DNA of 39,374 nt from a virus (lineage: Duplodnaviria; Heunggongvirae; Uroviricota; Caudoviricetes). The DNA lies in IMG/VR virus record IMGVR_UViG_3300029009_000036, positions 1-39,374 of that record; one strand, written 5' to 3'. Positions 2,057 through 38,627 of the stretch are shown here, one piece after another; the stretch's first letter is position 1; every line of letters begins with the position of its first letter. The position numbers were made by a program, and so were the translations under genes. The notes beneath the pieces are model-generated. The model was not told where the DNA came from. It did no database searches and saw only the letters and a program-made list of their open reading frames with translations.

Positions 2057-2752
2057 ATGAAAAAGGAAATACTCAAGGCTCTTTGCCCTACATGCGGTGG
2101 GTTACGTAACTGCACTGTGCATGGGAAGCTAACCACTAGCTGGGAGGATTCCCAATATCCAGTTTATGGGTACCATTACCATCACCTACTCCAATGCAAT
2201 GGCTGTGATACTGTCTTCTATCACCACAACGAACACTTCAGTGAGCATACTACCCACGAATATCGTGATGGTGAATTTGTAGAAACGCCTATAGATATGA
2301 TCACTACCTATCCTGCCGCTGAAACATTTCAAGCTCCGATATGGTTATCCAAGCTTGAATCAGTTGATCGTCAGCTCTTTCAAATATTTAATGAAATGTA
2401 TTCTTCATATACTTCTGACCATTTCATTCTTTCGTCCATCGGTTTACGGACGATTTTTGATCGAACTGCTGAACTGTTACAAATTCACCCCGGTTTGCCG
2501 CTTGGTGAAAAAGTTGAAAAATTAAAACAAGATGGAGTCATAGGCGACACTGAGGCATGCGTTATATCTTCAGTAATTGATGCAGGAAACGCCGCCGCAC
2601 ATCGCAGTTGGAGCCCGAATAAAAGTGAGTTCGAACAAATGCTAGAAGCTATAGAAAGTTTTGTCCAAAGAACTATCTTGGGCAAAAAATCACTTGAACA
2701 TATAACCAAACAACTCCCACCTCGGGTTACAAGACCTAAAAATAGTGCATAA
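2057..2752 (+). CDS. Hypothetical cargo protein: N-terminal Cys4 zinc ribbon plus C-terminal helical domain with GNAAAH motif (DUF4145/HEPN-like, unverified)
   Basis: 231 aa; CPTCGG...CNGC pair of CxxC motifs; C-terminal ...VIDAGNAAAHRSW... resembles the R/N..AH signature I associate with DUF4145/HEPN-type domains; lower GC than flanking phage genes. Confidence 0.6.
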   Translation: MKKEILKALCPTCGGLRNCTVHGKLTTSWEDSQYPVYGYHYHHLLQCNGCDTVFYHHNEHFSEHTTHEYRDGEFVETPIDMITTYPAAETFQAPIWLSKLESVDRQLFQIFNEMYSSYTSDHFILSSIGLRTIFDRTAELLQIHPGLPLGEKVEKLKQDGVIGDTEACVISSVIDAGNAAAHRSWSPNKSEFEQMLEAIESFVQRTILGKKSLEHITKQLPPRVTRPKNSA

Positions 2753-2778
2753 TCCGCGATCATCAATGTGGCGTAAGG

Positions 2779-3335
2779 CTATGGTTTACTTGCTACAGGG
2801 AATTTTTTATACACCGTTGAAATATCCAGATCATAAATCAGTGCGACTTGCTGCTGATATATTCCCGATTCAATCAACCTGCCAGCCTGCCCCCATTGTT
2901 CTACTGTCAGCTTTGGCTTTCGCCCACCGTTCCTCCCTTCTTGTCGTGCTGCGGCAAAGCCGCCCTAGTACGTTCGACAATAAACTCTCGCTCCATTTCA
3001 GCCAGGGCACCCATCACATGAAAGAAAAAGCGCCCCATTGGTGTGCTGGTATCAATAGCATCCGTCAGGCTGCGAAAATTAACGCCACGTTCGCGCAACT
3101 CTTCCACCAGCACGACAAGATGCCGCATACTGCGCCCCAGTCGGTCCAGTTTCCAGACCACCAGCGTGTCACCTGCCGATAATGTCCTGAGCAGCTTTTT
3201 CAGTCCTGGTCTGTCGGACTTTGTACCGCTTATCTTGTCTTCAAAAATCAGCTCACATCCTGCACAGTTCAACGCATTACGTTGTAGATCGGTGTTCTGG
3301 TCATTTGTTGATACGCGAACATAGCCAATAAGCAT
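2779..3335 (-). pseudogene. pin: Pin/Gin/Hin-family serine DNA invertase, frameshifted between catalytic and HTH domains
   Basis: ATG at 3335 with AGGAGG RBS; MLIGYVRVSTNDQNTDLQRNAL...LVVWKLDRLGRSMRHL is a canonical invertase catalytic domain; frame breaks near 2962-2968 (...VERTRAALPQHDKKGG...stop at 2907) while a shifted frame continues GGFAAARQEGRNGGKRPKLTVEQWGQAGRLIESGIYQQQVALIYDLDISTVYKKFPVASKP (HTH domain) to 2779. Confidence 0.75.
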
Positions 3336-3390
3336 GATAGCTCCTCCTGACAAAAACAGGAACGATGCCATTTGCGCGCTATTTCTGCAT

Positions 3391-3416
3391 TTTCATAAAC
3401 GTTGGTTTGGGAGAAG
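3391..3416. repeat. Invertase crossover site, left (gix/pix-like)
   Basis: tttcataaacgttggtttgggagaag; its reverse complement cttctcccaaaccaacgtttatgaaa matches 5224-5249 over ~20 bp; AAACC-NN-GGTTT core typical of gix/hix sites. Confidence 0.6.
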
Positions 3417-3754
3417 CGGCAAAAAGGAATGTGGGGACAGGGGCGAATCAGATACCTGATATGGGTAGCTTCACGCTTTCTGTTTCAGGTACTGGATATC
3501 AAAAATTACCATCTGGTTTTATTCTTCAGTGGGGCTCAATCGGCGCTCCAGGCATTGCACAGGATGTGGTAACCCATTTCCCGATTGCATTTCCGAACAG
3601 ATGTCTGCGTGTTTTGGTCTCACAAGACTACACACCAGATAGCGGGGCTGTTGGTTATATTGCCTGTGCAGGTTTTAGTCCCGACCCGGTTAAATTTATA
3701 TCCAGAGCCAGTACTCCAGGTCTCGGCGCTTCATTTTTAGCGTTAGGCTGTTAA
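3402..3754 (+). other. Alternative tail-fibre C-terminal coding segment (silent orientation, no own start)
   Basis: Open frame encoding ...[23 protein letters not shown]..., a tail-fibre C-terminal-like sequence, beginning at the left crossover site and followed by its own tfa gene. Confidence 0.5.
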
Positions 3755-3775
3755 TTTAGCTATATGGAATGAGAA

Positions 3776-4216
3776 ATGAATTATATATATTCCGCGACTA
3801 CAAACTCTTTCTATCCGTTAGAGATGAAAGAGGATTACACTCAAGCTGACTCATGGCCAGATGATGCTGTTGAAGTTGACGAGCAGGTGTATATTGAGTT
3901 TTCCGGATTACCGCCGAAAGGAAAAATCCGTATCGCTGGAGAAAATGGTTTTCCTGCATGGTCTGAAATTCCACCACCAACACATGAGGAACAGATTGCT
4001 GCAGCCGAACTGGAAAAGCAGCAATTGATTAATCAGGCCAACGATTATATGAACAGTAAACAATGGCCTGGTAAAGCGGCTATTGGTCGTCTGAAAGGTG
4101 AGGAACTGGCGCAATATAATTTGTGGCTGGATTATCTGGACGCACTGGAACTGGTTGATTCCTCCAGTGCTCCAGATATTGAATGGCCTACGCCTCCGGC
4201 AGTTCAGGCCAGATGA
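3776..4216 (+). CDS. Tail fibre assembly protein (alternative copy, Tfa family)
   Basis: 146 aa; C-terminus ...LWLDYLDALELVDSSSAPDIEWPTPP shares the conserved Tfa C-terminal motif with the convergent 4188-4781 gene. Confidence 0.8.
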   Translation: MNYIYSATTNSFYPLEMKEDYTQADSWPDDAVEVDEQVYIEFSGLPPKGKIRIAGENGFPAWSEIPPPTHEEQIAAAELEKQQLINQANDYMNSKQWPGKAAIGRLKGEELAQYNLWLDYLDALELVDSSSAPDIEWPTPPAVQAR

Positions 4217-4781
4217 CGTCCGGCGCGGTGCTGGTATCTGTTGCCGTCACCGCGTCAATGTAATCCAGCACGGCGTTAAGTCGGGTTGTTTCTGCCTGAG
4301 TCAGTTTCCGTCCGGCCTGTAATTTCAGCTGAATCAGACTAATGGAAGCCATTGCTGCATCAATCAGTGACTGGCGCTGTGCTTCTGCCGCGTCTACTGC
4401 GGCACTGTGTTGTGCCTCAGTGTCTGTCACCCATTTCTCACCATCCCATTTATCGTATGGCGTTAACGGTGAAATCGTGACATAACCGTCTTTGATGGCA
4501 CCGATATAATCCACTGTAGCAGCAGCACCATTTTCGATTGAGTAAACGGTCTCATTGCGATGGTCTTCTTCATGGCTCCATCCCTTACCTGTAAATACTG
4601 CCACTCTTCCCGGAATGTTTTCGCCAAGGTCAATACCAGTGGAATAGGCGGGCATACTTACGCCAGTATTAATATATTCATCAGACCAGCCCGTATACTC
4701 AGATGTTTCAGCATCATAATAAAAACAACGCATATCGCCCGGCACTGTAGCCAGCCCATTTTCATCAAAAACAGGTTTCAT
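4188..4781 (-). CDS. Tail fibre assembly protein (Tfa family, expressed orientation)
   Basis: 197 aa; ATG at 4781 overlaps tail-fibre stop (TAATG); C-terminus ...AVLDYIDAVTATDTSTAPDVIWPELPEA. Confidence 0.85.
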   Translation of the reverse strand: MKPVFDENGLATVPGDMRCFYYDAETSEYTGWSDEYINTGVSMPAYSTGIDLGENIPGRVAVFTGKGWSHEEDHRNETVYSIENGAAATVDYIGAIKDGYVTISPLTPYDKWDGEKWVTDTEAQHSAAVDAAEAQRQSLIDAAMASISLIQLKLQAGRKLTQAETTRLNAVLDYIDAVTATDTSTAPDVIWPELPEA

Positions 4782-23156: not shown

Positions 23157-23507
23157 TTACTTCAGCCGTTCACGGGCCGTCTTCGCCTTATGACACGGCC
23201 AGCACAGGCTCTGCAGATTGCTGTCGGCATCAGTGCCGCCATGCGCTTTAGGGATGATGTGGTCAACGGTTTTCGCCTCGCGCACCACACCGGCACGCAA
23301 ACACAACTGACACAGGCCTTTGTCACGCTTTAGTACACGCCCCCGGATAACATCCCATTTCGAACCATAACCGCGCTGGTGTCGGGACTGGCCTGGCTTG
23401 TATTGCTTCCAGCCCTCGCTTTTGTGGCTTTCGCAATAACCTGACGGGTCAGTCGTGGTATGGCGGCAGCCGCGAACTCGGCAGGCTTTTGGGGTTCGTG
23501 GTGGCAT
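23157..23507 (-). CDS. HNH endonuclease (terminase-associated)
   Basis: 116 aa from ATG 23507 (GGAG 5 nt upstream): MPPRTPKACRVRGC...CQLCLRAGVVREAKTVDHIIPKAHGGTDADSNLQSLCWPCHKAK has CxxC...DHI.P...N...CxxCH HNH signature. The longer ORF to 23606 uses TTG inside the repeat. Confidence 0.8.
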   Translation of the reverse strand: MPPRTPKACRVRGCRHTTTDPSGYCESHKSEGWKQYKPGQSRHQRGYGSKWDVIRGRVLKRDKGLCQLCLRAGVVREAKTVDHIIPKAHGGTDADSNLQSLCWPCHKAKTARERLK

Positions 23508-24017
23508 ATGTACTCCAATGAAGAAGCTACCGACATAGCCTCCTCCATTCGTCGTGAAACTATTTTCATCTACCCAGTAATGAATTCTTTGAAGAGTCGA
23601 GATCAATACAACTCACTGATGGGAGAGGCTTGCCTCACGCGTGAGGCAAGCCTCCTGTTTGATTTACTGGACAGTATAGGGGGGCAGAATGCCTTCCTCA
23701 CTCGAATAACATCAATTACGGAGCTTCAACACGGGTCAGTCGTGGTATGGCGGCAGCCGCGAACTCGGCATGCTTTTGAGGTTCGAGGGAGCATATGTAC
23801 TCCAATGAAGAAGCCACCGACATAGTCTCCTCCATTCGTCGTGAAACTATTTTCATCTACCCAGTAATGAATTCTTTGAAGAGTCGAGATCAATACAACT
23901 CACTGATGGGAGAGGCTTGTCTCACGCGTGAGGCAAGTTTCCCGTGTGATTTACTTGACACTATAGAAGGACAGAATGCCTTCCTCACTCGAATAACATC
24001 AATTAAGGAGGTTCAAC
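23431..24017. repeat. Tandem direct duplication, ~287-bp unit, two copies plus junction fragment
   Basis: 23444-23730 and 23731-24017 align at ~90% identity; each unit carries the first ~21 codons of HNH and a long palindrome; junctions share tcg(c)aataac. Confidence 0.85.
23625..23654. repeat. 30-bp perfect palindrome (degenerate second copy at ~23911-23940)
   Basis: gaggcttgcctcacgcgtgaggcaagcctc is its own reverse complement; no adjacent U-run, so not a canonical intrinsic terminator. Confidence 0.8.
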
Positions 24018-33315: not shown

Positions 33316-33990
33316 ATGAAAACAGTCCATGACATCCGGCGGTCTAACGCCAGAAAACTGAGAGATGGTGTTGGCGGGAATTCTTCCTTTGCCACCATGA
33401 TTGATCGCGAGCCAACCCAGACCAGCAGGTTTATGGGAGATGGTGCTACTAAAAATATCGGTGACAGCATGGCACGGCACATCGAAAAATGTTTCGACCT
33501 GCCTGTCGGATGGCTTGATCAAGAACACCAGACAACAAACATCACAAAAAAACCTGATGTTTCAATTACTAACAAACAAATAACGTTAGTCCCTGTCATA
33601 TCATGGGTACAGGCCGGAGCATGGAAAGAAGTTGGCTATTCTGAGGTTGATTTGAGCACAGCAGAAACTTATCCCTGCCCTGTACCCTGTGGCGAAATGA
33701 CTTATATCTTGCGGGTGATTGGTGATTCAATGATTGATGAGTACCGCCCGGGAGACATGATTTTTGTTGATCCCGAAGTCCCTGCCTGCCACGGTGACGA
33801 CGTTATTGCATTGATGCACGATACAGGCGAAACCACCTTCAAGCGATTGATAGAAGATGGAACACAGCGTTATCTCAAAGCATTAAACCCAAACTGGCCT
33901 GAGCCTTACATTAAGATTAACGGTAATTGCTCTATAATTGGTACAGTAATTTTCTCAGGAAAACCAAGAAGATACCAAATAAAGGCCTAA
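33316..33990 (+). CDS. CI-like repressor (HTH plus S24 LexA-type autopeptidase domain)
   Basis: 224 aa, ATG at 33316; C-terminal ...LRVIGDSMIDEYRPGDMIFVDPE... has GDSM Ser nucleophile context typical of S24 peptidases. Confidence 0.85.
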   Translation: MKTVHDIRRSNARKLRDGVGGNSSFATMIDREPTQTSRFMGDGATKNIGDSMARHIEKCFDLPVGWLDQEHQTTNITKKPDVSITNKQITLVPVISWVQAGAWKEVGYSEVDLSTAETYPCPVPCGEMTYILRVIGDSMIDEYRPGDMIFVDPEVPACHGDDVIALMHDTGETTFKRLIEDGTQRYLKALNPNWPEPYIKINGNCSIIGTVIFSGKPRRYQIKA

Positions 33991-35082: not shown

Positions 35083-35907
35083 ATGTCTCAGAACTTAGAC
35101 GCAACCGCAATTAATCAAATCCATGCCCTTATTTCTGCTCAGGGTGTTAATGAAATTATCAGTAAGATTGGTGCCGATGCTGTGGCATTGCCTGAGAATT
35201 TCCGCATTCATGATCTGGAAAAATTTAATTTAAATCGCTTCCGTTTCCGTGGTGCGCTTTCCACTGCCAGCATCGATGACTTTACCCGTTATTCTAAAGA
35301 TCTTGCAGATGAAGGCACCCGCTGCTTTATCGATGCCGATAATATGCGAGCAGTCAGTGTGCTTAACCTGGGTACTATTGATGAACCAGGTCACGCAGAT
35401 AACACCGCCACTCTCAAACTGAAAAAGACAGCACCGTTCTCTGCCCTGTTGTCTGTTAACGGCGAGCGTAACTCCCAGAAGTCACTGGCAGAATGGATTG
35501 AAGACTGGGCCGACTACCTTGTGGGCTTTGATGCTAATGGTGACGCTATTCAGGCAACAAAAGCGGCTGCGGCGGTCCGTAAAATCACAATTGAAGCGAA
35601 CCAGACTGCTGATTTTGAAGACAATGACTTCAGCGGCAAACGCTCCCTGATGGAGTCTGTCGAAGCGAAGACCAAAGACATTATGCCAGTGGCATTTGAA
35701 TTTAAATGCGTTCCGTTTGAAGGCCTGAAAGAACGTCCATTTAAATTACGACTCAGCATTATCACTGGTGATCGCCCTGTACTGGTTCTGCGCATTATTC
35801 AGCTGGAAGCAGTGCAGGAAGAAATGGCTAACGAATTTCGTGATCTGCTTGTTGAAAAATTCAAAGACAGCAAAGTAGAAACCTTTATTGGTACTTTCAC
35901 CGCCTGA
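35083..35907 (+). CDS. DUF2303-family protein (YfdQ-like)
   Basis: 274 aa, ATG at 35083 with GTGAGGA RBS; size and sequence recall CPS-53 YfdQ. Confidence 0.75.
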
Positions 35908-36083
35908 TTTCATTACTGCAAATGCCCCTGCGGGGGCGTTTACGGAAGCGATAATTTTAACTATTGCCGCCCCTATAAAGAACCATTAAACGATAACGTG
36001 ACGTAGCTATTGATAGTAAATGAAGCACTTGCAAAATAATTGCATTGCGTATATATACGCACATGTGTTGTATTACAGCGATA

Positions 36084-36878
36084 ATGGTAAAGCAAATGAT
36101 TAACTCTGAAGCAATTGAGCAACTAATGTGGTTATGGTCCTTATTTGACATTAAATTCTTATCTATTTTTGCCGCAGGCTTCACTATATATTTTGGCGTA
36201 CAAAAAATATCAAAAAAGGTGACAGTATCGTATTCAGCAAATGTAAGTAAAATATATGACATGCATATATCAACCATAATCCTGACTAATAAAAGAGATA
36301 ATGCAATTGCTATATCTTCAATCAATATGGAGGTTGAAGGGAAAGGGATACTACAAGTTATTAAATTTGACTCCCCTCTTCTTCTAAAGAACTATGATTC
36401 TTTAAAAGTTGAACTACCAAAATTTAGCAGCCTTTATAATAATGATGGCATAGTTAAGTTAGATATTTCTGATAAGTTTCATTTTTATATAATCACGACA
36501 TCTGGAGATGAAATCAAATGTATTTCTGAAAATAAACACGTGGCACCAAATATGAAAAACAAAATAATTCCAGACATAATAAAATTTAATGGCATTGTCT
36601 TAACAAACAGAATGTCTTATATTTTTTTCTATGCAAATGACAACGGAGAGAAATACTGCATAATAGATGCTTCATTGTCCATAAATGGCGACAACCCATT
36701 TCATTTTCATGTTCTTAAAGAAGATAAATTAAGAGATTTTTCTAGCATCCTTATTGGTTACGGATATCACCAACGGTTTAAAAGTTATGCATTATTTAAA
36801 ATAGACAACCATCTTGCTCCTTCTTTGGTTTTAAATAAATCAATGATAGAAAATAATATTATTGAAATGAATAAGTAA
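36084..36878 (+). CDS. AT-rich cargo gene: membrane-anchored protein of unknown function
   Basis: Start uncertain (ATG 36063, 36084 or 36096; track start 36045 is TTG); N-terminal TM helix LMWLWSLFDIKFLSIFAAGFTIYFGV then ~230-aa Asn/Lys/Ile-rich soluble domain; candidate promoter TTGCAA-N17-TATATA just upstream (hexamer positions approximate). Confidence 0.6.
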   Translation: MVKQMINSEAIEQLMWLWSLFDIKFLSIFAAGFTIYFGVQKISKKVTVSYSANVSKIYDMHISTIILTNKRDNAIAISSINMEVEGKGILQVIKFDSPLLLKNYDSLKVELPKFSSLYNNDGIVKLDISDKFHFYIITTSGDEIKCISENKHVAPNMKNKIIPDIIKFNGIVLTNRMSYIFFYANDNGEKYCIIDASLSINGDNPFHFHVLKEDKLRDFSSILIGYGYHQRFKSYALFKIDNHLAPSLVLNKSMIENNIIEMNK

Positions 36879-36914
36879 CTCACCGGGTGCAGCCGGTTAT
36901 GATGGAGAAATGAT

Positions 36915-37187
36915 ATGAATACCTTGTTTTTACTGATGGCTGAATTCAATACCCTAAACATTGAACTCTCAGCAGTTAGTCAAAAATACTTTGGTATGAG
37001 TCCAGCCACGGCAGAAGCAAAAGCAAACGCTTGTAAGTTGCCCGTTCCAACATATCGCATCGGCACATCACAAAAAGCAAAACGTTGCATCAATATTCAG
37101 GATCTTGCGGAATACATAGACAAAAGGCGAGAAGAAGGGCGTGCTGAGTGGGAAAGGGTCAGAACCCATAAACAAAGGCTCATTTAA
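36915..37187 (+). CDS. Excisionase-like winged-helix DNA-binding protein (PrtN/AlpA-like, unverified)
   Basis: 90 aa, ATG at 36915 with GGAGAAA RBS; MNTLFLLMAEF... recalls PrtN-family proteins; attR-proximal position opposite int mirrors torI in KplE1. Confidence 0.55.
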   Translation: MNTLFLLMAEFNTLNIELSAVSQKYFGMSPATAEAKANACKLPVPTYRIGTSQKAKRCINIQDLAEYIDKRREEGRAEWERVRTHKQRLI

Positions 37188-37194
37188 ATAGAAT

Positions 37195-37228
37195 ATGAAT
37201 AAACCCATCCAAAGGTGGGTTTATTCAT
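37195..37228. terminator. Perfect 13-bp hairpin between convergent genes
   Basis: atgaataaaccca / tgggtttattcat with 8-nt loop tccaaagg; U-rich tract on minus strand; overlaps stop of the 37221-37682 gene. Confidence 0.65.
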
Positions 37229-37682
37229 AATGTTGAAGAGCAGCGAGTATCAGTTTTTTATGCCGTTTAACCATGATTTTAGATATCTCAACTGCACATC
37301 GAACTTGTCTCATACAATGATCTGTAATGCGACCTTTTAGCACGTCGCCATATTGGATGGCTATTTTCTCTTTAATAATTTCAAGATCGAAAGCAGCATG
37401 AGCCTCAATGCAATTAACAAATGAGTCCCATTTAAGAAAATCATGGTCCTCTCTATTAATTTCGACCTGACAAGCCATAAGATCATTGTTTCTCTTAATA
37501 AATTCATTTATATCTGAATTTATTAGAAGAACTAAAAGAGGTTCACAGCAAACAACCACCATATATTTTACTTTAGGTGGGGTCGTAAAATCACAATGAA
37601 GATACAATACATCACCGGGTGATATACCTCTTTCACGACTAAAATTAGCCTTAAAATCAGGAGGGAAACAATCACCCAGCAT
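37221..37682 (-). CDS. Uncharacterised partner protein of Panacea-domain gene (candidate toxin/effector)
   Basis: 153 aa from ATG 37682 (TTG 37691 alternative); starts 6 nt after Panacea-gene stop; AT-rich; no domain recognised. Confidence 0.6.
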   Translation of the reverse strand: MLGDCFPPDFKANFSRERGISPGDVLYLHCDFTTPPKVKYMVVVCCEPLLVLLINSDINEFIKRNNDLMACQVEINREDHDFLKWDSFVNCIEAHAAFDLEIIKEKIAIQYGDVLKGRITDHCMRQVRCAVEISKIMVKRHKKLILAALQHYE

Positions 37683-37687
37683 AAGTA

Positions 37688-38269
37688 TCAATATCCGTTC
37701 TTCAGATAATCCAGTATTAATTTGCTATTTTTTAGCTGTGCAACTATCGATTCCAAAGACATCTCACCATTGTGATCTGCCTGTTCCCATGCCGCGTCAT
37801 GGCTCATGGTTCTGATAGCTTCAAAGGACATGTTTCCAAGCATCGCGATAGACTTATCAATACACTCTAAATCTGAGTCACTAAAAAAGTCTTCATCAGC
37901 TTCACGGCTCGGCACAATCATCATACCTGATACAGAAAATGCTTTTCGCACAGAATCGACATCACAACCATTAGGAATGTAACGTCCATCTCCACGAGCA
38001 ATTTTTATAATATCGTATGTGTTGCTTGCTACAGGCCCATCCTTCATAGCGTTATAGTGATCGCCCGTTATGAGGCGTCCAAAACTTTCAAGGTGAAACC
38101 TGTCAGCATAATAAAGAATTTTTCCGACATGATAGATATCTGGGATCGGTGCTTTAGAGGCGACGTACAGAATGGCCTCTAAAGCCTTTTCTGAATCAAA
38201 CCTTACATTTAGCATCAATACACCCTTCATCCAAACAACATCGTCAAGCTCTGGCAAATGCAACCGCAT
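37688..38269 (-). CDS. Panacea-domain (DUF4065, SocA-like) protein, candidate antitoxin
   Basis: 193 aa, ATG at 38269 with AGGAGG RBS; core ...KILYYADRFHLESFGRLITGDHYNAMKDGPVASNTYDIIK... fits the K.LYYA....G.P......A...GPV...Y pattern I associate with DUF4065. Confidence 0.65.
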   Translation of the reverse strand: MRLHLPELDDVVWMKGVLMLNVRFDSEKALEAILYVASKAPIPDIYHVGKILYYADRFHLESFGRLITGDHYNAMKDGPVASNTYDIIKIARGDGRYIPNGCDVDSVRKAFSVSGMMIVPSREADEDFFSDSDLECIDKSIAMLGNMSFEAIRTMSHDAAWEQADHNGEMSLESIVAQLKNSKLILDYLKNGY

Positions 38270-38390: not shown

Positions 38391-38472
38391 TTCAAAAACG
38401 GTACATCCTATCGAGCATCGGGGCAATCGAGAAACGGTAAGCGGGATAAACAGTGTGTGATTCTGCTGGCAT
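38391..38472 (-). pseudogene. dusA: Displaced original 5' end of dusA (remnant at attR)
   Basis: Minus-strand ATG 38472: [21 protein letters not shown] then diverges to a stop; ...RFSIAPMLD matches the restored dusA copy at the left end. Confidence 0.6.
38411..38427. other. attR core candidate
   Basis: tcgagcatcggggcaat, direct repeat of 109-125. Confidence 0.5.
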
Positions 38473-38627
38473 GGCGACTTTTTAAGCATCTGGTAAATTG
38501 GGGGCGCTACTATAGCATAACGAATATGCGATCAGGCAATGTGACAGCCATGACACCCTGTTCTCGGCGTTTAAGTGAGAACTATGATAAAGTAAGGACA
38601 TTCTTAACCCCACTGTCGAGGTGCCCA

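What the first reader, a model, noticed from the sequence alone, without database searches (positions are those of the whole stretch)
36001..36878. AT-rich membrane-protein cargo gene in a variable slot between yfdQ-like and excisionase-like genes
The 35.9-38.3 kb region is visibly more AT-rich than the rest of the prophage. This gene has its own candidate promoter (TTGCAA-N17-TATATA), follows a terminator-like hairpin after the yfdQ-like gene, and encodes one N-terminal TM helix plus a ~230-aa Asn/Lys/Ile-rich domain unfamiliar to me. Such single-gene membrane cargo in prophage ends is often superinfection exclusion or abortive infection.
Basis: partly seen in the sequence, partly recalled or inferred. 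Interest (0 to 1): 0.55.

Follow-up and report, generated by a model that had tools for sequence, protein, structure and literature searches.

The report
Orphan membrane-protein cargo gene in prophage
A single AT-rich gene in a dusA-integrated E. coli prophage encodes a membrane-anchored protein from a small, unnamed family that travels alone between prophages, satellites, islands and plasmids; it is probably an untested anti-phage gene, but no function has been shown.

Summary
Window 36096-36878 (+) is an intact 260-aa gene. It has the lowest GC in the window (0.29 against 0.51). It sits in a 925-bp cassette (35957-36882) between yfdQ and a PrtN-type excisionase in a dusA-integrated, SfV-like prophage. 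The cassette is in 99 of 5,426 complete E. coli genomes, always one copy with the same junctions. Of 741 genomes with this excisionase, 612 carry a 3'-5' exonuclease there instead, at the end of a ~3.3-kb multigene block.

The protein matches no Pfam, NCBIfam or PADLOC model, no solved structure and no sequenced phage. Its only hit is phrog_14996, of unknown function. A profile search finds 226 relatives, all about 250 aa. The AF2 model (pLDDT 83) shows an N-terminal helix, an Ig-like beta-sandwich and a second beta-rich domain. Flanking charges predict N-out/C-in, so the large domain would be cytoplasmic. The membrane-helix core is the most conserved segment, and dN/dS is 0.34-0.45 against 0.02-0.06 for yfdQ.

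Relatives are always stand-alone and AT-rich. All but one of the inspected contexts show a mobile-element, island or adjacent defence-gene marker, including a site 158 nt from a type II-A retron. The best reading is a new single-gene anti-phage determinant acting at the inner membrane (about 0.5). The mechanism is inferred.

The parts
35920..35941 (+). GC-rich hairpin (9-bp stem, 4-nt loop) just after the yfdQ stop. It is part of the conserved yfdQ module, not of the cassette. It is a weak terminator candidate because it has no U-tract.
   Evidence: Fold: -19.1 kcal/mol for 35905-35960, z -2.9. 2,599 E. coli genomes share the sequence up to about 35957.
35957..36882 (+). The mobile cassette: 138-139 nt of upstream region, the gene, and 4 nt after the stop codon. 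It replaces the yfdR-to-exonuclease block of related dusA prophages.
   Evidence: Homology to L010-L013 ends at 35956/7 and resumes at 36883. The cassette alone hits exactly 99 of 5,426 genomes, one copy each, 95.7-99.9% identity, 100% coverage.
36029..36057 (+). Its function is unproven.
   Evidence: Exact pattern found once. Not called by the consensus scan, which shows no excess of sites over shuffles. Identical in three alleles.
36046..36061 (.). Perfect 16-bp palindrome TGCGTATATATACGCA overlapping the candidate -10. It could be an operator or just an AT-rich palindrome. The APEC O78 allele has a 2-nt deletion here.
   Evidence: Its RNA fold is no better than shuffled sequence (z +0.31).
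36096..36878 (+). CDS of 260 aa (29.8 kDa, pI 8.3), an orphan family member (phrog_14996; RefSeq 'hypothetical protein').
   Evidence: dN/dS among E. coli alleles is 0.34-0.45.
36123..36203 (+). Codes for the predicted single transmembrane helix (residues ~10-36; core 21-38 with the motif F-T-I-Y-F-G-x-Q-K). This is the most conserved segment of the family.
   Evidence: Hydropathy. AF2 helix 4-38. Conservation is 2.18 bits for the core against 1.78 and 1.45 for the two domains, across 153 sequences.
36219..36530 (+). Codes for domain 1 (residues ~42-145), an Ig-like beta-sandwich. It carries the near-invariant residues N65, D68, P94, K98, S111 and C142.
36561..36872 (+). Codes for domain 2 (residues ~156-259), beta-rich with short helices. 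It follows a low-confidence, fast-evolving linker (146-155). No structural match was found for it.
   Evidence: Allele differences cluster at 148-162 and 192-227.
36915..37187 (+). PrtN-family excisionase gene, the right-hand neighbour. It is the start of the conserved xis module.
   Evidence: PF11112 at 1.5e-22 and phrog_1300 'excisionase' at 6.4e-39. Present in 741 E. coli genomes.
35083..35907 (+). YfdQ/DUF2303 gene, the left-hand neighbour.
   Evidence: PF10065 at 2e-92. Present in 2,763 genomes.

Best explanation
SHOWN. The gene is real and intact. It is a stand-alone cargo cassette that moves horizontally between unrelated mobile elements, and it stays AT-rich in every host inspected.

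PREDICTED. It encodes a single-pass inner-membrane protein with a short periplasmic N-terminus. About 220 residues (an Ig-like beta-sandwich plus a second beta-rich domain) face the cytoplasm.

INFERRED. It is an anti-phage determinant that works alone at the cytoplasmic face of the inner membrane. I put an anti-phage role of any kind at about 0.5.

The mechanism I favour is a sensor-effector protein, at about 0.3. The fast-evolving cytoplasmic domains would recognise a phage component. That would drive self-association through the unusually conserved transmembrane helix (F-T-I-Y-F-G-x-Q-K, with small residues about a heptad apart). The membrane would then be compromised and the infection aborted. 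A direct block of genome entry is the close rival.
For: - Real and under selection: intact in all 99 carriers and in every homologue. dN/dS is 0.34-0.45, below 1 but about tenfold higher than the neighbouring yfdQ (0.02-0.06) at the same dS of ~0.09.
- Mobile cargo with no partner: about 14 distinct contexts in 27 homologue loci were inspected.
  - E. coli dusA prophage, early-left end (window).
  - Citrobacter islands of three kinds sharing a 477aa-260aa-xis-int end.
  - Klebsiella and another lambdoid prophage, nin region.
  - A lone opposite-strand gene among a lambdoid prophage's otherwise minus-strand genes, near the lysis genes.
  - Small Pseudomonas-type integrase/resolvase islands.
  - Small Acinetobacter plasmids.
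  - No neighbour is conserved across these.
- Defence neighbourhood:
  - In Pantoea it lies 158 nt from a convergent type II-A retron (RT_II-A 5.6e-107, NDT_II-A 2.1e-59) beside a D5-type primase.
  - PDC-S60 lies 1.4 kb away, with an HsdR_N gene in the same locus. HEC-08 lies 6 kb away.
  - For context, six of eight randomly chosen unknown-function loci in P4 defence hotspots proved protective (PMC13586616). That base rate applies only loosely, because these islands are not shown to be P4 satellites.
- AT-rich relative to every host inspected: 0.30-0.33 against 0.43-0.52 in enterobacteria, and 0.46-0.49 against 0.55-0.58 in the Pseudomonas-type loci.
- Topology: K+R averages 2.6 in the C-terminal flank and 0.54 in the N-terminal flank. 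136 of 152 members have more on the C side. One relative (P0035) has a signal-peptide-like segment and a ~90-aa coiled coil before the family helix, which fits N-out.
- The helix core is the most conserved part of the protein. A plain anchor would not be expected to show this, and in SNIPE the N-terminal anchor region is poorly conserved (PMC13190303).
- No catalytic motif or enzyme fold was detected.
Against: - There is no functional evidence of any kind.
- No PADLOC, Pfam or NCBIfam hit for the protein or for 50 relatives. Three E. coli RefSeq accessions of the protein are absent from the DefensePredictor supplements.
- The defence-neighbour evidence is anecdotal. It rests on a few loci, with no background rate computed.
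- Expression from the repressed prophage is unproven. The promoter is only a candidate.
- The gene is co-oriented with the early-left operon, and no terminator separates it from xis. It may therefore be a lytic-cycle gene.
- A single 16-18-residue hydrophobic core is a weak pore former. The window protein's hydropathy is borderline (1.51).
- Topology rests on the positive-inside rule only.
Confidence: 0.3

Rival explanations
1. Direct block of genome entry, that is superinfection exclusion in the strict sense. The protein sits at the inner membrane. Its cytoplasm-facing domains and conserved helix would interfere with the channel that incoming tape-measure or ejection proteins build, or with a host inner-membrane factor they use. 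Infected cells would survive. In function this resembles HK97 gp15, P22 SieA, or SNIPE without its nuclease.
For: - The prophage location and single-pass membrane architecture fit.
- SNIPE has the same N-out/C-in single-pass topology, shown experimentally, and acts on injection from the cytoplasmic face (PMC13190303).
- The conserved SieA motif is also predicted to be cytoplasmic (PMC10883804).
- A conserved helix could reflect binding to a universal host membrane protein.
- No enzymatic motif was found, which suits a steric blocker.
Against: - No sequence or profile similarity to gp15/YebO, SieA, SieB, Imm, Sp, Cor or Llp families in Pfam or PHROGs.
- Exclusion proteins, from my own knowledge, are usually confined to phages and narrow in range. 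This family also sits on non-mobilizable plasmids and small chromosomal islands from Enterobacteria to Pseudomonas and Acinetobacter.
- No DNA-binding or nuclease module is present.
Confidence: 0.2
2. A phage-benefit early gene rather than a host-protective one. It would be expressed from the early-left operon during lytic growth or induction. Its role would be, for example, host takeover at the membrane, control of excision or lysis timing, or counter-defence. It would give no protection to the lysogen.
For: - It has the same orientation as cI-yfdP-yfdQ-xis, and it occupies the place of the yfdR-to-exonuclease early block.
- No terminator lies between it and xis.
- In Klebsiella and another lambdoid prophage it is co-oriented with the early-right nin region.
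- The promoter evidence is no better than chance.
Against: - It also occurs where there is no lytic programme: small plasmids, integrase/resolvase islets and a Pseudomonas chromosomal islet.
- In one lambdoid prophage it is the only opposite-strand gene among the surrounding minus-strand genes. That arrangement implies its own promoter.
- Every copy has an 83-300-nt private upstream region.
- The upstream region is better conserved than the CDS among alleles.
Confidence: 0.2
3. Lysogenic conversion unrelated to phages. This would be a membrane protein that changes host envelope physiology, stress tolerance, colonisation or competition, for example immunity to a toxin or bacteriocin.
For: - It is carried by host-associated strains from many animals and from humans.
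- In two loci a T6SS-immunity-like Rap1a gene is nearby, and in Pantoea L026 two genes with CdiA-CT RNase A toxin domains (PF18431) are nearby.
- From my own knowledge, Ig-like domains often mediate protein binding.
Against: - The predicted cytoplasmic location of the domain argues against a surface or adhesion role.
- No cognate toxin gene is consistently adjacent.
- Its distribution follows mobile elements rather than any niche.
Confidence: 0.12
4. Functionless hitch-hiking DNA or a decaying ORF, kept only because it sits between two useful modules.
For: The cassette is rare (1.8% of E. coli genomes), the gene is an AT-rich orphan, and its dN/dS is fairly high.
Against: - It is intact and full-length in all 99 carriers. 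dN/dS is well below 1.
- There are 226 profile relatives of the same length and architecture, with near-invariant residues, across several gammaproteobacterial genera.
- The AF2 model is confident.
Confidence: 0.03

Closest known systems
SNIPE / PD-lambda-1 (E. coli; PMC13190303)
   Same: A single-gene, membrane-anchored determinant. It has a short periplasmic N-terminus, one transmembrane helix and the bulk of the protein in the cytoplasm. That topology is shown for SNIPE and predicted here.
   Different: SNIPE is defined by DUF4041 plus a GIY-YIG nuclease, and neither is present here. SNIPE's N-terminal anchor is its least conserved part, whereas here the helix core is the most conserved. 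This protein is about half the size, and its domains are beta-sandwiches.
HK97 gp15 moron (YebO-like superinfection exclusion protein; PMC3594210)
   Same: A prophage-borne single gene whose GC differs from its neighbours. It encodes an inner-membrane protein and has no partner gene. It is present in some related phages and absent from others.
   Different: There is no sequence relationship. gp15 is described as a small protein, whereas this one has a ~220-aa two-domain extension. gp15 lies in the tail operon with its own promoter and terminator, while this gene lies in the early-left arm and has no terminator.
P22 SieA (PMC10883804)
   Same: A prophage inner-membrane protein that acts alone. 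Its conserved motif is predicted to lie on the cytoplasmic side.
   Different: SieA has three predicted transmembrane helices, is 162-164 aa long and carries the FxRYPxEAxxFNK motif. This protein has one helix, and the motif is absent. There is no homology.
Defence proteins whose effector is a transmembrane segment joined to a sensor or signal-binding domain (for example CBASS, Pycsar and retron TM effectors, or RexB). This comparison rests on my own knowledge and was not tested here.
   Same: A conserved membrane segment joined to a more variable cytoplasmic domain. They are carried on mobile elements and in defence islands.
   Different: From my own knowledge, those effectors usually have two or more helices. 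They also depend on a partner enzyme or sensor gene. This gene stands alone with one short helix and matches none of their PADLOC models.
Archaeal type IV pilins and archaellins (best Foldseek PDB hits: 9eq7, 6w8u, 8fk7)
   Same: A long N-terminal hydrophobic helix followed by an Ig-like beta-sandwich.
   Different: The match is weak (TM-score 0.24-0.26, E about 5e-4 to 4e-3). There is no class III signal peptide, an extra C-terminal domain is present, and the flanking charges point to the opposite orientation. This is architectural convergence at most.

Membership tests
Moron as defined for HK97/HK022 (Juhala et al. 2000, cited in PMC3594210) | Base composition differs from the flanking phage genes | tested here: met
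   Gene GC is 0.29 against 0.46 for yfdQ, 0.42 for xis and 0.51 for the window. The same holds in every homologue locus inspected.
Moron as defined for HK97/HK022 | An extra element present in some closely related phages and absent from others | tested here: met
   99 of 741 genomes with the same xis carry it. However, it replaces a ~3.3-kb block rather than simply adding DNA.
Moron as defined for HK97/HK022 | Its own promoter | tested here: inconclusive
   The TTGCAA-N17-TATATA motif is present. The scan shows no excess over shuffles. The private upstream region is conserved.
Moron as defined for HK97/HK022 | Its own terminator | tested here: not met
   Downstream there is only a 5-bp stem (-8.5 kcal/mol, z -0.7, no U-tract). 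It lies in sequence shared with prophages that lack the cassette.
Moron as defined for HK97/HK022 | Expressed from the repressed prophage | not testable with these tools
   Needs RNA-seq or 5'-RACE of a lysogen.
SNIPE / PD-lambda-1 | DUF4041 domain and C-terminal GIY-YIG nuclease | tested here: not met
   No Pfam hit above threshold. No PADLOC hit for the protein or 50 relatives.
SNIPE / PD-lambda-1 | N-out single-pass helix with the remainder in the cytoplasm | tested here: inconclusive
   Predicted from the positive-inside rule (136 of 152 members) and from the architecture of P0035. Not measured.
HK97 gp15 / YebO family | Sequence homology to YebO or gp15 | tested here: not met
   The only PHROG hit is phrog_14996 (unknown function). 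The only Pfam hit is a sub-threshold Ig_TMEM131L_3 match.
P22 SieA | Three transmembrane helices and the FxRYPxEAxxFNK motif | tested here: not met
   One hydrophobic segment only. The motif is absent.
Lactococcal Sie2009-type, Ltp, Cor and Llp exclusion proteins | Functional domain exposed outside the cytoplasmic membrane (N-terminal anchor or lipobox) | tested here: not met
   There is no lipobox and no positively charged n-region. The charge bias predicts a cytoplasmic domain. This is a prediction, not a measurement.
Any defence system in PADLOC-DB v2.0.0 (including PDC and HEC candidates) | Match to a system HMM | tested here: not met
   No hit for the window protein. Among 51 family members there were only two isolated sub-significant hits.
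Phage lysis proteins (holin, i-spanin) | Homology to a lysis family, or a place in the lysis cassette | tested here: not met
   No PHROG or Pfam lysis hit. The gene lies between yfdQ and xis, not among lysis genes.
Type II toxin-antitoxin pair | A conserved adjacent partner gene | tested here: not met
   Neighbours differ in every context. The two large upstream proteins (427 and 477 aa) are unrelated (E = 1.0).
Type IV pilin / archaellin | Class III signal peptide and pilin fold at significant similarity | tested here: not met

The most novel reading that the evidence does not exclude
The gene would found an unrecognised, widespread family (at least 226 clusters at 50% identity in gammaproteobacterial prophages, primase-bearing islands, other genomic islands and plasmids) of one-protein immune determinants. 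A sequence-conserved single transmembrane helix would be the effector or docking element. A rapidly diversifying cytoplasmic tandem beta-sandwich would be the phage sensor. This would be a minimal membrane-anchored defence with no enzymatic domain and no similarity to any described system.
Probability: 0.3. Interest if true: 0.65.

Novelty: new variant of a known kind. Interest (0 to 1): 0.5.

Why it matters
If the protein protects against phages, it would add a new single-gene family with no enzymatic domain to the defence catalogue. It would also give a small, tractable model (260 aa, one helix, two beta domains) for how a membrane-anchored protein senses or blocks infection from the cytoplasmic side. 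That question was recently opened by SNIPE.

The locus also shows that the right arm of dusA-integrated E. coli prophages holds two adjacent exchange points: upstream of xis, and between xis and attR. These could be mined for further cargo.

If the protein does not protect, it remains an ordinary orphan prophage gene.

Tried and rejected
- Family libraries. Pfam, NCBIfam, PADLOC and PHROGs were run on the protein, and Pfam and PADLOC also on 50 relatives. Only phrog_14996 (unknown function) hit.
- Solved structures by sequence. The profile against PDB sequences gave only a chance hit (E 2.2).
- Sequenced phages. tblastn against 50,697 phage records found nothing, so no sequenced phage isolate carries it.
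- Conserved partner gene. I rejected this idea. The 477-aa (Citrobacter) and 427-aa (Acinetobacter) upstream proteins are unrelated. HNH nucleases lie upstream in two loci but not in others.
- Known RNA element in the region. None found.
- Long att direct repeat. None of 18 nt or more. The duplicated dusA 5' segments are diverged.
- Literature. No paper in the library mentions the three accessions tried or the PHROG. Three E. coli RefSeq accessions of the protein are absent from the DefensePredictor supplements. None of the new P4-hotspot systems (Bandua, Aernus, Toga, Reve, Crouga, Hailong) fits this architecture. Brenes & Laub 2025 is not held, so I could not check whether that screen already covered this gene.
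- Genome-wide locus scan. The close-family scan found only 3 species.
Full report
1. WHAT IS THERE

The window is a dusA-integrated, SfV-like myovirus prophage of E. coli.
- The minus strand of 1-170 encodes a phage-supplied dusA N-terminus.
- A tyrosine integrase follows at 301-1398.
- The displaced dusA 5' fragment lies at about 38400-38470, just before zur.

On the right arm the gene order, all on the plus strand, is:
- LexA/S24-type repressor, 33316-33990
- yfdP
- yfdQ/DUF2303, 35083-35907
- the target gene
- PrtN-family excisionase, 36915-37187

A strong bidirectional terminator follows at 37194-37229. After it comes a minus-strand pair: a Panacea-domain gene at 37688-38269 and a 156-aa orphan at 37221-37691.

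The mechanical ORF is 36045-36878. Three lines of evidence put the start at ATG 36096, giving 260 aa:
- the full-length match to phrog_14996 (E 1.4e-175);
- the RefSeq annotation of a 99.9%-identical locus;
- invariance of M1 and N3 across homologues.

Some annotators call a 250-aa form that starts at M11.

2. THE OBSERVATION

- AT-richness. The two 500-nt windows covering the gene have the lowest GC in the window: 0.306 and 0.308, against a next-lowest of 0.348 and a mean of 0.506. Gene GC is 0.29 and GC3 is 0.26.
- Hairpin. The hairpin after yfdQ is a 9-bp GC-rich stem at 35920-35941. The 56-nt stretch folds at -19.1 kcal/mol, z -2.9. It has no U-tract, and it belongs to the yfdQ module that about 2,600 E. 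coli genomes share up to about 35957.
- Promoter. TTGCAA-N17-TATATA is at 36029-36057. Its -10 lacks the final T. The consensus scan neither calls it nor finds more promoter-like sites than in shuffled sequence (12 against 11.9). So the promoter is a candidate only.
- Upstream region. The 138-nt upstream region travels with the gene. It differs from two other alleles by 1 and 2 substitutions (the second also has a 2-nt indel), while the CDS differs by 34-35. That fits a regulatory role but rests on small numbers.
- Protein. One hydrophobic segment (best 19-mer 1.51; family mean 1.73) precedes a ~220-aa part rich in Ile, Lys, Ser and Asn.

3. THE SLOT

Homology to other dusA prophages ends at 35956/7 and resumes at 36883, four bases after the stop codon. 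The 925-bp cassette occurs in exactly 99 of 5,426 complete E. coli genomes. Each carries one copy at full length, 95.7-99.9% identical, always between yfdQ and the PrtN excisionase.

The same excisionase is in 741 genomes. In 612 of them a 3'-5' exonuclease gene lies immediately upstream. In the four such loci I inspected, that gene closes a ~3.3-kb early block (yfdR, small ORFs, ead/Ea22, DUF551, exonuclease) that starts after yfdQ.

So the cassette is a minority allele that replaces a multigene block. It is not one entry in a hypervariable one-gene slot.

The neighbouring interval between xis and attR does swap cassettes freely. Three different Panacea-plus-orphan pairs, a YafO-plus-orphan pair and an unrelated pair of orphan genes occur there in the relatives I inspected, including other carriers of the target gene.

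4. THE PROTEIN

No model in Pfam, NCBIfam or PADLOC matches it, and no PDB sequence does. No sequenced phage isolate encodes it.

The close family is tiny: 15 clusters at 90% identity among 5.8 billion. It occurs in E. coli, Shigella, Salmonella, Citrobacter and Klebsiella, plus Pantoea and Buttiauxella. A profile search of 1.84 billion representatives finds 226 relatives at E of 1e-3 or better. Nearly all are 235-275 aa with the same layout, and they extend to Pseudomonas and Acinetobacter.

AlphaFold2 with the 15-sequence alignment gives pLDDT 83 and pTM 0.66. The model has:
- helix 4-38;
- a beta-sandwich at 42-145;
- a disordered linker at 146-155;
- a second beta-rich domain with short helices at 156-259.

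5. TOPOLOGY AND CONSERVATION

Across 152 family members, the 15 residues after the hydrophobic segment carry 2.6 Lys+Arg on average. The 15 residues before it carry 0.54 Lys+Arg and 1.5 Asp+Glu. The C-side is richer in 136 members, equal in 10 and poorer in 6.

By the positive-inside rule this predicts a short periplasmic N-terminus and a cytoplasmic body. One relative (P0035) supports this. It has a signal-peptide-like segment and a ~90-aa coiled coil in front of the family helix.

The helix core (residues 21-38, motif F-T-I-Y-F-G-x-Q-K, K37 in 93% of members) is the most conserved stretch of the protein:

| Segment | Conservation (bits) |
|---|---|
| Helix core, 21-38 | 2.18 |
| Domain 1, 42-145 | 1.78 |
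| Domain 2, 156-247 | 1.45 |
| Linker, 146-155 | 0.78 |

Near-invariant polar residues are N65, D68, K98, S111 and C142 in domain 1 and Y179 in domain 2.

Among E. coli alleles dN/dS is 0.34-0.45. For yfdQ next door it is 0.02-0.06 at the same dS. Replacements concentrate in the linker and domain 2. The protein is therefore under selection but evolves fast, and the membrane helix is the constrained part.

6. CONTEXT ELSEWHERE

I inspected 27 homologue loci, which fall into about 14 distinct contexts. In all of them the gene stands alone, has a private 83-300-nt upstream region and is AT-richer than its surroundings. The contexts are:
- Three kinds of Citrobacter islands (one with a D5-type primase, two CP4-like with CbtA/CbeA) that share a 477aa-gene-xis-int end.
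- The nin region of a Klebsiella P22-like prophage and of another lambdoid prophage.
- A lone opposite-strand gene among a lambdoid prophage's otherwise minus-strand genes, near the lysis genes.
- Small integrase/resolvase islands, where a serine resolvase gene lies directly upstream.
- A Pseudomonas chromosomal islet.
- Non-mobilizable Acinetobacter plasmids, one carrying MazEF.
- Two island-like regions with defence candidates nearby: HEC-08 6 kb away, and PDC-S60 1.4 kb away with an HsdR_N gene in the same locus.
- Pantoea, 158 nt from a convergent type II-A retron (RT 5.6e-107, NDT 2.1e-59) beside a D5-type primase.
- Buttiauxella, downstream of an AT-rich HNH nuclease gene.

No neighbour is conserved. 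The two large upstream proteins are unrelated.

This is the classic footprint of accessory cargo, and in several cases of a defence neighbourhood. It remains anecdotal, because I could not compute a background rate.

7. HOW IT MOST LIKELY WORKS

Status of each step:
- Shown: a real, selected, mobile, stand-alone gene.
- Predicted: a single-pass N-out/C-in inner-membrane protein with two cytoplasmic beta-rich domains and no enzymatic signature.
- Inferred: an anti-phage function, at about 0.5 overall.

I favour a sensor-effector mode, at about 0.3. The variable cytoplasmic domains would recognise a phage product and drive helix-helix association of the conserved transmembrane segment. That would damage the membrane and abort the infection. 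Two features fit this: the conserved module is the helix and the variable module is cytoplasmic, and the family sits on plasmids and islands as well as in phages.

The close rival, at about 0.2, is a direct block of genome entry from the cytoplasmic face. Precedents are SNIPE (same topology, shown experimentally, but with DUF4041 and a nuclease; PMC13190303), P22 SieA (PMC10883804) and HK97 gp15 (PMC3594210).

Non-defence readings remain open:
- A lytic-cycle early gene, at about 0.2. The gene is co-oriented with the early-left operon and has no terminator before xis.
- Conversion of some other host trait, at about 0.12.
- Junk, which is disfavoured at about 0.03.

8. COMPARISON WITH WHAT IS KNOWN, AND NOVELTY

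In kind, this is a familiar object: a prophage accessory gene for a membrane protein, moron-like in composition and in its patchy presence. It fails the terminator criterion for a moron, and its promoter is unproven.

It is not a member of any described exclusion or defence family. The defining features of SNIPE, SieA, gp15/YebO, the outward-facing exclusion proteins, the PADLOC systems, lysis proteins, TA pairs and pilins were each tested and not met. The one exception is the SNIPE-like topology, which is only predicted.

I rate it a new variant of a known kind. The family is unnamed and uncharacterised, and its combination of a highly conserved single helix with a cytoplasmic tandem beta-sandwich has no described counterpart.

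One caveat applies. The E. coli prophage defence screen of Brenes & Laub (2025) is not in the library, so I cannot exclude that this gene has already been tested there.

9. VERDICT

- Interest is 0.5. It is a good, cheap candidate for a phage-challenge experiment, but it is not surprising in kind.

Noticed in passing
window 37221-38269 (minus strand): A Panacea/SocA-like antitoxin-domain gene (37688-38269; PF13274, 6.8e-20) overlaps by 4 nt a downstream 156-aa orphan (37221-37691) that has no family hit. The layout looks like a PanA-PanT toxin-antitoxin pair. This interval between xis and attR swaps cassettes among related dusA prophages: three different Panacea+orphan pairs, a YafO+orphan pair and an unrelated orphan pair were seen.
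   Followed up: partly
window 37194-37229: A 14-bp-stem hairpin with T-runs lies between the convergent xis gene and the 156-aa gene. It is a likely bidirectional terminator.
   Followed up: no
window 2057-3182: AT-rich cargo next to the integrase: a 231-aa DUF4145 protein (8.8e-10) and an overlapping 145-aa orphan. The DUF4145 protein has no PADLOC hit. This may be another accessory or defence slot at the left prophage end.
   Followed up: partly
window 3365-4781: A tail-fibre C-terminal domain (Gp53-like_C) and a tail-fibre assembly gene on the plus strand face a second assembly gene on the minus strand. The arrangement looks like an invertible host-range segment. No invertase or inverted repeats were checked.
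   Followed up: no
window 23444-24017: A tandem duplication of a 287-nt unit, with the copies 93% identical.
   Followed up: no
window 38426-38584, compared with L001 8527-10242: Compared with strain GF66.2, the window lacks about 1.7 kb between attR and zur. The missing stretch holds the rest of the displaced dusA fragment and a DUF2713 gene. Strain 2015C-4136CT1 (L012) likewise has neither a dusA fragment nor a DUF2713 gene annotated there.
   Followed up: partly
L016 7237-8753, L024 9125-10753, L032 7164-8810 (also L029, L030): In small Pseudomonas-type integrase islands, a ~200-aa serine resolvase gene sits directly upstream of the family member. The two may form a small mobile unit of resolvase plus cargo.
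   Followed up: no
L025 10971-13026 and L026 10969-12985: A complete type II-A retron (RT plus NDT effector, GC 0.31-0.37) lies beside a D5-type primase in a Pantoea island, convergent with the family member. The msr/msd RNA was not searched for.
   Followed up: partly
L021 4153-5436 and L027 8563-9504: Unrelated HNH-nuclease genes (HNH_5 and HNH_2) lie just upstream of the family member in an Acinetobacter plasmid and in Buttiauxella. They are absent elsewhere. This is probably separate cargo rather than a partner.
   Followed up: partly
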